A DNA stretch of 61,363 nt from Escherichia coli (GCF_003334785.1 NZ_QOWV01000020.1), one strand, 5' to 3'; positions 54,458-55,126 are shown, counted from the first letter of the stretch. Notes: a model not told the origin generated them from the letters alone. Made by a program: numbers and translations.

Positions 54458-55000
54458 CTTTATCAATGACTTATCTCCTGACTTCCCGCCTTGCTTTTCC
54501 TAAACAGAACAATCGTAGAATATTCTTGAAGGGTTAGATCGTCACTGTTTTCTGTTCGATACTGTGACATTCAGCACTTGATTCGCTATGGAGCTGACAG
54601 GAAGGTTTCGAGCGAAAATCTACAGTTATTCAGTCGTTTTCTTATCGGTCACCATTATTCTTTTAGACATTGATCCTATGAAACTGCCGCAAAGTTGCTG
54701 GCGGGAACTGAAGTTGCGTAGAGAAGGGGTCAATAATTGAGTCAAAAAAGGAACGCGGCCGTCAGATTAAAGCCGCGGGACAAAGTCCATAATTTCCAAG
54801 AGTTGTTGAATTTCCCAGCTTTTTTGAAAGCCTTTGTATCATACTAACAAGTAAAAAAGGTTTAAACACCAAAATTAACCTATATTTCTGGTTAGCTTTA
54901 CCATGACAGATGACTTGCTCCTGGAAACATTTGCGCTGCCAGTCTGTATGGCTGAGTTGTGTATTTATTGTTCGCCTTTTTCGCATTTTTTTTCTACAGA

Positions 55001-55038
55001 CATAATAAAAAAGACACGACTCAAGTATGAGCGTGTCT
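55001..55038 (-). terminator. Rho-independent terminator downstream of zinT
   Basis: Stem AGACACG / CGTGTCT with a 13-nt loop, followed on the minus strand by a T-run (plus-strand CATAATAAAAAAG). Confidence 0.5.
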
Positions 55039-55126
55039 GAGTTTGTCTTACTTATTTGTCTTGGCAAATTATTGTTGTTACTACCAGGCACTGTTCTGTT
55101 AAATAACTGAAGTCAGCGCAAAAAAA

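What the first reader, a model, noticed from the sequence alone, without database searches (positions are those of the whole stretch)
54458..55126. No coding sequence between zinT and tRNA-Ser, where I expect yodB
From memory of the K-12 gene order, a small cytochrome b561-like gene (yodB) lies between zinT and serU. Here the 670-bp interval contains only a terminator hairpin and a non-hydrophobic 109-codon ORF that looks spurious. This may be a strain-specific deletion, but my recollection of the reference order could be wrong.
Basis: partly seen in the sequence, partly recalled or inferred. Interest (0 to 1): 0.25.

Follow-up and report, generated by a model that had tools for sequence, protein, structure and literature searches.

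The report
Common yodB-less zinT–serU spacer allele
The gap between zinT and the serine tRNA gene really lacks the small cytochrome gene yodB that E. coli K-12 has there, but this is an ordinary, widespread version of the locus (about 42% of complete E. coli genomes) and probably the older one, not a strain-specific deletion.

Summary
In the window, serU (54368-54457, +) and zinT (55127-55777, -) are 669 bp apart. K-12 has 1442 bp there, including yodB. TBLASTN with YodB finds nothing anywhere in the window.

It is not a simple or strain-specific deletion. The first 447 bp (54458-54904) match K-12's yodB-serU spacer. The remaining 222 bp (54905-55126) stand where K-12 has 995 unrelated bp (yodB plus flanks). 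Only the zinT terminator hairpin is shared.

Among 5426 complete E. coli genomes, 2272 carry this 222-bp version and 3114 carry yodB. No gene is annotated in the short version in any record examined.

E. albertii also lacks yodB. Its spacer aligns with the window's across the K-12 breakpoint. The yodB-less form is therefore most likely ancestral, and the yodB cassette a later acquisition.

YodB's nearest non-E. coli relatives (76-77% identity) sit in the accessory-gene (moron) slot of lambdoid prophages.

The short allele is strongly linked to the yersiniabactin island (HPI) at asnT, 1.1 kb away. HPI is known to spread together with its flanks.

The 109-codon ORF is spurious. The hairpin is zinT's intrinsic terminator. 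This is ordinary accessory-gene polymorphism, of low interest.

The parts
54368..54457 (+). serU, tRNA-Ser(CGA). Its last 14 nt (54444-54457, CCCTCTCTCCGCCA) are the attachment core used by serU-integrating prophages and islands. It is unoccupied here.
   Evidence: ARAGORN and Rfam tRNA at 57 bits. The 14-mer occurs once in the window. The same 14-mer is duplicated as attR next to an integrase island in Escherichia sp. MOD1-EC7003. Phage SerU-LTIIb ends with a partial tRNA-Ser.
54458..54904 (.). 447-bp non-coding spacer shared with K-12, where it lies between yodB and serU. The first ~138 bp are the best conserved part across Escherichia.
   Evidence: The blastn segment 54301-54904, which includes this spacer, is 97.0% identical to K-12. 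Positions 54458-54595 are 98.6% identical to K-12, 92.8% to MOD1-EC7003 and 85.1% to E. albertii. Nothing is annotated here in K-12 or in any short-allele genome. Rfam finds only the tRNA above threshold.
54743..54855 (.). 113-bp stretch present in both E. coli alleles but missing from the E. albertii spacer (an indel).
   Evidence: Alignments. It is 99.1% identical to K-12.
54904..54905 (.). Breakpoint between the shared spacer and allele-specific DNA (...TTTACCAT | GACAGATGAC...). K-12 continues with ...CCAT | TGTACGATTT. E. albertii continues like the window.
   Evidence: blastn end-points and four-way alignment. The 49 bp before the breakpoint are only 85.7% identical to K-12.
54905..55126 (.). 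222-bp allele-specific non-coding segment, standing where K-12 has 995 bp (342-bp spacer, yodB, and 122 bp beyond it).
   Evidence: No blastn similarity to the K-12 995 bp except a 13-nt word in the hairpin. Found in 2272 of 5426 genomes at 93-100% identity, with nothing annotated under it. It is 71% identical to the E. albertii spacer, with significant alignments (z 5.2 and 6.3).
55001..55038 (-). Intrinsic terminator of zinT: stem AGACACG/CGTGTCT with a 13-nt loop (55012-55038), followed on the minus strand by UUUUUUAUUAU. It begins 87 nt after the zinT stop codon.
   Evidence: RNA fold of the minus strand, z -3.0. The pattern is unique in the window, with 0 expected by chance. K-12 has the same stem 92 nt after its stop codon. 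E. albertii has it at 90 nt, with changes on both stem arms, of which one pair (A-U to G-C) is a clean compensatory change by my reading of the alignment and was not formally counted.
54762..55091 (-). 109-codon GTG ORF. It is spurious, not a gene.
   Evidence: It runs through the zinT terminator and straddles the allele breakpoint. It has no NCBIfam hit and is not annotated in identical or related genomes. Window against IAI39 shows 11 non-synonymous and 4 synonymous codon differences; zinT (window against K-12) shows 4 and 10. It is not intact in E. albertii or K-12.
55127..55777 (-). zinT (metal-binding protein ZinT). Similarity to K-12 resumes at its stop codon.
   Evidence: ORF list. 97.5-97.7% identical to K-12 from 55127 onward. 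Annotated as zinT in the identical genome 7/2.

Best explanation
The interval is the yodB-less allele of a two-allele structural polymorphism at the E. coli zinT-serU spacer. It is entirely non-coding.

It holds three things:
- the unoccupied attachment core at the 3' end of serU;
- 447 bp of spacer shared with K-12;
- 222 allele-specific bp that carry zinT's intrinsic terminator.

K-12-like strains have a 995-bp cassette in place of those 222 bp. The cassette consists of a diverged zinT 3' flank that keeps the same terminator hairpin, then about 200 bp of upstream DNA, then yodB (a predicted cytochrome b561, PF01292), then 122 bp.

Inferred direction: the yodB-less form is the older one, shared with E. 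albertii. The yodB cassette was brought into one part of E. coli by horizontal transfer and replaced the older sequence. The gene family it belongs to travels as an accessory gene (a 'moron') in lambdoid prophages.

In present-day E. coli the short allele is partly native to some lineages. It has also partly been carried into others together with the yersiniabactin island (HPI) at asnT, 1.1 kb away, by homologous recombination of the island's flanks.

Shown: absence of yodB, replacement structure, allele frequencies, collinearity with E. albertii, the terminator, absence of coding signal, and the association with HPI.

Inferred: the direction (gain rather than loss), the phage origin of yodB, and hitch-hiking with HPI.
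For: Structure:
- The window matches K-12 up to 54904 and again from 55127. Between these points it has 222 bp where K-12 has 995 bp.
- The only shared word is 13 nt in the terminator hairpin.
- YodB TBLASTN against the window is negative.

Frequency:
- yodB is in 3114 of 5426 genomes.
- The 222-bp segment is in 2272 of 5426.
- The K-12 zinT-yodB spacer is in 3107.
- The two classes add up to 5386, consistent with mutually exclusive alleles.

Direction:
- E. albertii has zinT, then 564 bp, then serU, with no yodB.
- Its spacer aligns with the window's on both sides of the K-12 breakpoint. Window against E. albertii gives z 5.2 before the hairpin and z 6.3 after it. K-12-specific DNA against either gives z of at most 2.2.
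- Escherichia sp. MOD1-EC7003 also has no yodB next to zinT.
- The short allele is more diverse (down to 93-94% identity) than the K-12 non-coding flank (97.7-100% in nearly all genomes).
- Every 'divergent' YodB I could trace is an IS-disrupted or frameshifted copy of one allele.

Mobility of yodB:
- The next-best relatives are only 72-77% identical.
- Those at 76% lie between the holin/lysozyme genes and the HNH/terminase genes of prophages. Another lies near a Bor-like gene.
- A weak 51-nt match (E 0.015) lies in the same position upstream of the prophage copies.

HPI linkage, from 60 evenly spaced genomes:
- 15 have the HPI integrase and the short allele.
- 1 has the integrase and the yodB allele.
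- 3 have no HPI and the short allele.
- 23 have no HPI and the yodB allele.
- Strain 55989, which I recall as phylogroup B1, has HPI and a spacer differing from the window at 1 of 669 positions.
- Co-transfer of HPI with its yeeI/mtfA flank is published (PMC2606025).

No coding signal. Terminator.
Against: - Only one true outgroup species (E. albertii, one genome) and one cryptic-clade genome (itself rearranged) were recovered. E. fergusonii, E. marmotae and E. ruysiae were not seen.
- The K-12 cassette keeps a hairpin with the same stem at the same distance from zinT (92 against 87 nt), and that stem is closer to the window's than E. albertii's is. A wholly foreign cassette does not obviously predict this.
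- Divergence begins exactly after the zinT stop codon although zinT itself is 97.7% identical. This needs either a lucky crossover or later homogenisation of the flanks.
- ZinT itself shows a similar identity gap to other genera (at least 89% within Escherichia, at most 74% outside). The 77% gap for YodB is therefore not in itself evidence of transfer.
- Phylogroup assignments of the named strains rest on my own knowledge, not on a test.
- The HPI association is confounded by phylogeny.
- Nine genomes with 80-90% identity to the K-12 flank could not be inspected.
Confidence: 0.72

Rival explanations
1. One reading: yodB was present ancestrally between zinT and serU and was deleted in this lineage. 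The 222 bp would be what is left after the deletion.
For: K-12 and 3114 of 5426 genomes have yodB at this place. Both alleles share the zinT terminator hairpin at about the same distance from zinT. ZinT shows a comparable identity gap to other genera, so YodB could be an old, fast-evolving resident.
Against: - A deletion would leave K-12-like flanks joined together. Instead, the 87 nt before the hairpin and the 87 nt after it are not detectably similar to any K-12-specific DNA (z 1.8, 0.5, 2.2). They are similar to E. albertii (z 5.2, 6.3).
- E. albertii and MOD1-EC7003 lack yodB.
- The allele is not strain-specific: 2272 genomes carry it.
- No YodB of intermediate divergence exists in a 5.8-billion-protein search.
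Confidence: 0.15
2. The reverse import: the yodB allele is native to E. coli. The short allele entered E. coli from a yodB-less Escherichia relative together with the HPI, and spread only as part of HPI recombination tracts.
For: There is a very tight association of the short allele with the HPI integrase at asnT. Strain 55989 (phylogroup B1, from my recollection) carries HPI plus a spacer differing from the window at 1 of 669 positions. Published work shows HPI moves with its flanks (PMC2606025). Divergence from K-12 is elevated (14%) in the 49 bp next to the breakpoint.
Against: - The DNA lying between HPI and the 222 bp (mtfA, serU, 54458-54855) is 98-99% identical to K-12. An import from another species would have needed later repair of just that stretch.
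- Short alleles differ from one another by up to 6-7% over the 222 bp, whereas HPI flanks are reported as nearly invariant.
- About 3 of 60 sampled genomes have the short allele without HPI at asnT.
Confidence: 0.1
3. The interval is not empty. It would encode an unannotated small protein (the 109-, 50- or 45-codon ORFs) or a small RNA that functionally replaces or complements yodB.
For: All three ORFs stay open in four other short-allele genomes. The first 138 bp after serU are well conserved across Escherichia. There is a weak Rfam sX4 match at E 0.0045.
Against: - Substitutions in ORF109 are mostly non-synonymous (11:4), against 4:10 for zinT.
- ORF109 crosses the zinT terminator and is broken in E. 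albertii and K-12.
- By my reading of the printed translations, the changes in the 50- and 45-codon ORFs are likewise almost all amino-acid-changing.
- None of the three has an NCBIfam hit.
- PGAP annotates nothing here in thousands of genomes.
- The sX4 score of 25.5 bits is far below the gathering score of 70 and overlaps the tRNA.
- The serU-proximal RNA folds no better than shuffled sequence, z +1.4.
Confidence: 0.03

Closest known systems
E. coli K-12 zinT-yodB-serU-mtfA-asnT locus (b1973-b1977)
   Same: The gene order and orientation of msrP, msrQ, zinT, serU, mtfA and asnT are the same. Identity is 97-98% on both sides. The 447-bp serU-proximal spacer is the same, and the stem of the zinT terminator hairpin is the same.
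   Different: There is no yodB. 222 bp stand in place of 995 bp, with no other similarity. The spacer is 669 bp against 1442 bp. HPI is inserted at asnT here, where K-12 has yeeJ directly.
E. albertii NBRC 107761 zinT-serU spacer
   Same: There is no yodB. The spacer is short (564 bp) and collinear with the window's over its whole length, including across the K-12 breakpoint. The terminator hairpin sits 90 nt after the zinT stop codon.
   Different: Identity is only about 70-85%. It lacks the 113 bp at 54743-54855. The hairpin stem differs on both arms, with one A-U to G-C pair change that I read from the alignment and did not formally count.
Spread of the High-Pathogenicity Island with its chromosomal flanks (Schubert et al. 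2009, PMC2606025)
   Same: The window carries HPI at asnT. The spacer lies 1.1 kb from asnT, beyond yeeI/mtfA, which is the flank shown to be co-transferred. The short allele is strongly associated with the HPI integrase across genomes.
   Different: The paper did not examine serU, the spacer or yodB; its text contains none of these terms. Co-transfer of this spacer is my inference from an association in a sample of 60 genomes, not a demonstrated event.
Lambdoid-prophage accessory genes ('morons') in the lysis-terminase gap, such as bor
   Same: The nearest non-E. coli YodB relatives (76% identity) are single, oppositely oriented genes between the holin/lysozyme genes and the HNH/terminase genes of prophages. 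One Citrobacter chromosomal copy lies 2.7 kb from a Bor-like gene.
   Different: This concerns yodB, which is absent from the window. The K-12 yodB cassette has no phage genes around it and shares no flanks with those prophages beyond a weak 51-nt match. No sequenced phage in the INPHARED set carries a close homologue.
serU-integrated prophages and islands (phage SerU-LTIIb KU052038.1; Stx1d prophage of O121:H7, PMC9729726)
   Same: They use the 3' end of the same tRNA gene. In such genomes the spacer studied here becomes the far junction of the element, as in 'serU-prophage-yodB'.
   Different: serU is unoccupied in the window: there is one copy of the core and no integrase between serU and zinT. 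yodB lies 569 bp beyond the attachment site, so it is not part of such elements.

Membership tests
YodB / cytochrome b561 (Pfam PF01292 Ni_hydr_CYTB) gene in the interval | An ORF or pseudogene whose translation is similar to YodB | tested here: not met
   TBLASTN of K-12 YodB against all six frames of the window gives a best E of 0.53 elsewhere and E 3.9 for a 12-residue match in the interval. blastn of the K-12 995-bp cassette against the window finds only a 15-nt chance word.
Simple deletion allele of the K-12 locus | The sequences flanking the missing segment in K-12 are directly joined, with no extra unrelated DNA | tested here: not met
   222 bp with no K-12 counterpart apart from a 13-nt hairpin word lie between the two matching blocks.
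Strain-specific variant | Rare among sequenced E. coli genomes | tested here: not met
   The full 669 bp are covered at 80% or more in 2282 of 5426 complete genomes. The 222-bp segment is in 2272.
Rho-independent (intrinsic) terminator | A G+C-containing stem-loop directly followed by a U-run on the transcribed strand, downstream of a gene on that strand | tested here: met
   On the minus strand the sequence is AGACACG-loop-CGUGUCU followed by UUUUUUAUUAU, beginning 87 nt after the zinT stop codon. The stem is retained in K-12, and in E. albertii with changes on both arms. Termination activity itself was not tested.
Protein-coding gene (the 109-codon ORF) | Conservation under purifying selection, a family match, or annotation in related genomes | tested here: not met
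   Non-synonymous to synonymous codon differences are 11:4, against 4:10 for zinT. The ORF is broken in E. albertii and K-12. It has no NCBIfam match and is never annotated.
tRNA-integrated island or prophage at serU | An integrase gene and a second copy of the tRNA 3' end bounding the inserted DNA | tested here: not met
   There is a single copy of CCCTCTCTCCGCCA in the window. No integrase-like ORF lies between serU and zinT. The spacer is contiguous with serU, as in K-12.
Known RNA family (Rfam 15) in the interval | A covariance-model score at or above the family's gathering threshold | tested here: not met
   Only the tRNA passes. sX4 scores 25.5 bits against a threshold of 70, and a plastid 3'UTR model scores 40.9 against 68; both overlap the tRNA.
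HPI-flank recombination tract (Schubert et al. 2009) | The flank sequence follows the HPI's phylogeny rather than the core-genome phylogeny | tested here: inconclusive
   There is a strong allele-HPI association (15:1 against 3:23 in 42 informative sampled genomes). Strain 55989, recalled as phylogroup B1, differs from the window at 1 of 669 spacer positions.

The most novel reading that the evidence does not exclude
E. coli yodB is a domesticated lambdoid-prophage accessory gene. It would have been dropped, with its own promoter, just downstream of the zinT terminator in the ancestor of the K-12-like lineages, replacing the ancestral spacer that this window still carries. In addition, the ancestral yodB-less spacer has since been re-spread across phylogroups as a passenger of the yersiniabactin island. 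The presence or absence of a respiratory-chain-type cytochrome would then be coupled to carriage of a virulence island.
Probability: 0.3. Interest if true: 0.3.

Novelty: already known. Interest (0 to 1): 0.12.

Why it matters
It matters little. The finding shows that yodB is an accessory gene, not a core E. coli gene, and that the window carries the common yodB-less allele.

There are three practical consequences:
- Annotation pipelines and readers should not expect yodB in HPI-positive or ExPEC-like genomes.
- The K-12 order is not the ancestral reference at this spot.
- The spacer allele could serve as a cheap marker of HPI-flank recombination tracts.

The possible phage origin of yodB is a small evolutionary footnote. 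It does not open a new question.

Tried and rejected
- Residual yodB pseudogene in the interval or elsewhere in the window: rejected by TBLASTN and low-stringency blastn.
- Remnant of a serU-integrated island: rejected. There is a single att core and no integrase, and the K-12-specific DNA lies next to zinT, not next to serU.
- Small RNA: Rfam at E up to 1 gives only the tRNA above threshold. The serU-proximal RNA folds no better than shuffled sequence.
- Coding potential of the 109-, 50- and 45-codon ORFs: rejected.
- Searching for divergent yodB alleles that might mark a donor or an older presence: P0047, P0059, P0011 and P0245 all proved to be frameshifted, truncated or IS-disrupted copies of the ordinary allele.
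- Searching for a donor of the K-12 flanks among 80 zinT loci of other genera and the prophage loci: no match except a weak 51-nt one.
- More Escherichia outgroups: the genome-contig scan returned only E. albertii and one cryptic-clade genome. A ZinT protein search gave no separately clustered Escherichia species.
- Polarising the substitutions near the breakpoint with E. albertii: the result depended on the alignment, so I dropped the argument.
- Literature on yodB and zinT together, or on yodB and phylogroups: nothing relevant.

Full report
**1. What is in the window**

ARAGORN finds tRNA-Ser(CGA), which is serU, at 54368-54457 on the plus strand. The ORF list gives four genes on the minus strand:
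- mtfA within the listed ORF 53477-54313 (its true start is internal, about 54274 by comparison with the annotated 798-bp gene);
- zinT at 55127-55777;
- msrQ at 56034-56669;
- msrP at 56670-57674.

A genome identical over this region (E. coli 7/2, NZ_CP023820.1) is annotated by PGAP with zinT followed directly by tRNA-Ser and nothing between them.

**2. The K-12 comparison**

The MG1655 record shows zinT, a 342-bp spacer, yodB (531 bp), a 569-bp spacer, then serU, mtfA and asnT. The K-12 zinT-serU gap is 1442 bp.

blastn shows window 54301-54904 at 97.0% identity to K-12 and 55127-55852 at 97.7%. Between these blocks the window has 222 bp (54905-55126). K-12 has 995 bp there (L001 4027-5021: the 342-bp spacer, yodB, and 122 bp beyond it).

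At low stringency the only shared word is 13 nt. TBLASTN with YodB finds nothing in any frame of the 61-kb window (best E 0.53).

So yodB is truly absent. The structure, however, is a replacement, not a clean deletion.

**3. How common it is**

Among 5426 complete E. coli genomes:
- the full 669 bp are covered at 80% or more in 2282;
- the 222-bp segment is in 2272;
- yodB is in 3114;
- the K-12 zinT-yodB spacer is in 3107.

The two classes add to 5386, consistent with two mutually exclusive alleles plus a few rearranged genomes.

Short-allele genomes include an O25b:H4-ST131 strain, IAI39 and 55989. yodB genomes include K-12 derivatives, BLR(DE3), O157:H7 and O111:H8. No feature is annotated under the short allele in any listed record.

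**4. What the 669 bp contain**

- *Attachment core.* The serU 3' end (CCCTCTCTCCGCCA, 54444-54457) is the core used by serU-integrating elements. It is duplicated next to a P4-like integrase island in Escherichia sp. MOD1-EC7003. Phage SerU-LTIIb ends with a partial tRNA-Ser followed by 569 bp and yodB. A Stx1d prophage is described as lying between serU and yodB (PMC9729726). In the window the core occurs once, so the site is unoccupied.
- *Shared spacer.* This is the 447 bp at 54458-54904. Its first 138 bp are well conserved: 98.6% with K-12, 92.8% with MOD1-EC7003 and 85.1% with E. albertii.
- *Allele-specific 222 bp.* On the minus strand, starting 87 nt after the zinT stop codon, lies a stem-loop (AGACACG, 13-nt loop, CGUGUCU; 55012-55038) followed by UUUUUUAUUAU. 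That is the form of an intrinsic terminator for zinT.
- *No other RNA signal.* Rfam finds nothing but the tRNA above threshold.

**5. The ORFs**

The 109-codon ORF (54762-55091, minus strand) has these properties:
- it starts 36 nt after the zinT stop codon and runs through the terminator;
- it straddles the allele breakpoint;
- it has no family match;
- it is broken in both E. albertii and K-12;
- window against IAI39 shows 11 non-synonymous and 4 synonymous codon differences, while zinT (window against K-12) shows 4 and 10.

By my reading of the printed translations, the 50- and 45-codon plus-strand ORFs likewise change mostly at the amino-acid level between alleles.

**6. Which allele is older**

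A scan of species-representative genomes with ZinT recovered E. albertii (zinT, then 564 bp, then serU, then mtfA, with no yodB). It also recovered a cryptic-clade Escherichia genome with no yodB next to zinT. In other genera zinT is in an unrelated context.

The E. albertii spacer aligns with the window's along its whole length, including across the K-12 breakpoint. Alignment scores against shuffled controls:

| Comparison | z score |
|---|---|
| Window vs E. albertii, 87-90 nt before the hairpin | 5.2 |
| Window vs E. albertii, DNA after the hairpin | 6.3 |
| K-12-specific DNA vs window or E. albertii | at most 2.2 |

The short allele is also more diverse within E. coli (down to 93-94% identity) than the non-coding part of the K-12 cassette (97.7-100% in nearly all genomes). 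Every apparently divergent YodB I could trace was a disrupted copy of the one allele.

I therefore infer that the yodB-less form is ancestral and the yodB cassette was acquired later, with a probability of about 0.7.

Caveats:
- Only one real outgroup genome was available.
- The K-12 cassette keeps a hairpin with the same stem at nearly the same distance from zinT.
- Divergence starts exactly at the zinT stop codon.
- The 49 bp before the other breakpoint are only 85.7% identical between the alleles.

These features suggest that the cassette came from a relative with a homologous zinT 3' region, and that later recombination sharpened the boundaries. No donor was found.

**7. Where yodB may come from**

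A search of 5.8 billion proteins finds E. coli YodB at 98-100% identity and then nothing above 77%.

The 76% relatives (P0010 from Citrobacter portucalensis; P0004 with 495 member sequences) are single genes of opposite orientation. They lie between the holin/lysozyme genes and the HNH/terminase genes of prophages, which is the classical slot for phage accessory genes. A Citrobacter chromosomal copy lies near a Bor-like gene. A Salmonella copy lies in an island-like region.

DNA similarity to K-12 is confined to the coding region, plus a weak 51-nt match in the equivalent upstream position. This is compatible with a phage-borne origin of yodB but does not prove it. ZinT shows a similar identity gap to other genera, so the gap alone is not evidence.

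**8. Link to the yersiniabactin island (HPI)**

The window carries HPI at asnT, 1.1 kb from serU. I used a query running from the HPI integrase to the end of the 222 bp, and sampled 60 genomes evenly down the ranking:

| Class | Genomes |
|---|---|
| HPI integrase + short allele | 15 |
| Integrase + yodB-type breakpoint | 1 |
| No HPI + short allele | 3 |
| No HPI + yodB allele | 23 |
| Match breaks at the serU 3' end (an element inserted there) | 17 |
| Small non-chromosomal record | 1 |

Strain 55989, which I recall as phylogroup B1, has HPI and a spacer differing from the window at a single position out of 669. Schubert et al. showed that HPI spreads within E. coli together with its flank, including yeeI (now mtfA) (PMC2606025). 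That gene lies between asnT and serU.

Hitch-hiking of the short allele with HPI is therefore plausible. It remains confounded by phylogeny, and no trees were built.

**9. Verdict**

The explanation is an ordinary, very common presence/absence polymorphism of an accessory gene. The window carries the probably older yodB-less allele. Nothing here is a new kind of element.

Noticed in passing
window 52224-53139 (-): The HPI integrase next to asnT is a pseudogene with a 347-bp internal deletion relative to the intact 1263-bp gene of strain 55989. It is annotated 'frameshifted' in the identical genome 7/2. About 4 of 60 sampled genomes share this deleted form (matches in one piece).
   Followed up: partly
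window 54457-54474 (3' end of serU), seen in other genomes: In 17 of 60 evenly sampled complete E. coli genomes the match to the window stops exactly at the serU 3' end. This means a prophage or island is integrated there. Examples are ST131 strain 4993, with tail-fibre genes abutting the spacer, and O103:H2 and O145 strains. The site is empty in the window.
   Followed up: partly
L002 6649-12096 (Escherichia sp. MOD1-EC7003): Only about 24 bp plus the last ~115 bp of the spacer remain after zinT. Next comes a copy of the serU 3' end, then a P4-like integrase (6981-8207), and then an island. The island encodes a 565-aa protein whose C-terminal part looks pentapeptide-repeat-like by eye (no domain search run) and pilin-like proteins. 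serU itself is not within 5.4 kb.
   Followed up: partly
L083 5001-5540; L084; L087 and L088 6001-6540: Cytochrome b561 genes 76% identical to YodB sit as lone, oppositely oriented genes between the lysis cassette and the HNH/terminase genes of Citrobacter-type lambdoid prophages. None of the 50,697 phage records carries a close homologue.
   Followed up: partly
window 54856-54904: The last 49 bp of the 'shared' spacer before the breakpoint differ from K-12 at 7 positions (85.7% identity), against 99.1% in the preceding 113 bp. The haplotype divergence therefore extends a little beyond the obvious breakpoint.
   Followed up: partly
window 54743-54855: A 113-bp stretch present in both E. coli alleles is absent from the E. 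albertii spacer. By eye it contains a short G+C-rich inverted repeat (GCGGC...GCCGC).
   Followed up: no
L095 2634-3222 (ST131 strain 4993): An IS3-family element (IS1397) is inserted between zinT and msrQ in this ST131 genome. That is the region that holds the zinT promoter in the window.
   Followed up: no
window 60466-61363: According to the annotation of the identical genome 7/2, an IS1 copy (about 61210-61363, running off the window) abuts an hchA gene that lacks its N-terminus (about 60466-61206).
   Followed up: no
L105 and L106 3775-5504; L104: Some E. coli genomes carry an IS5-like (DDE_Tnp_1) insertion in the 5' end of yodB. This creates a 167-aa chimeric 'cytochrome b' that looks like a divergent allele (89.8% identity) in protein databases.
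   Followed up: yes
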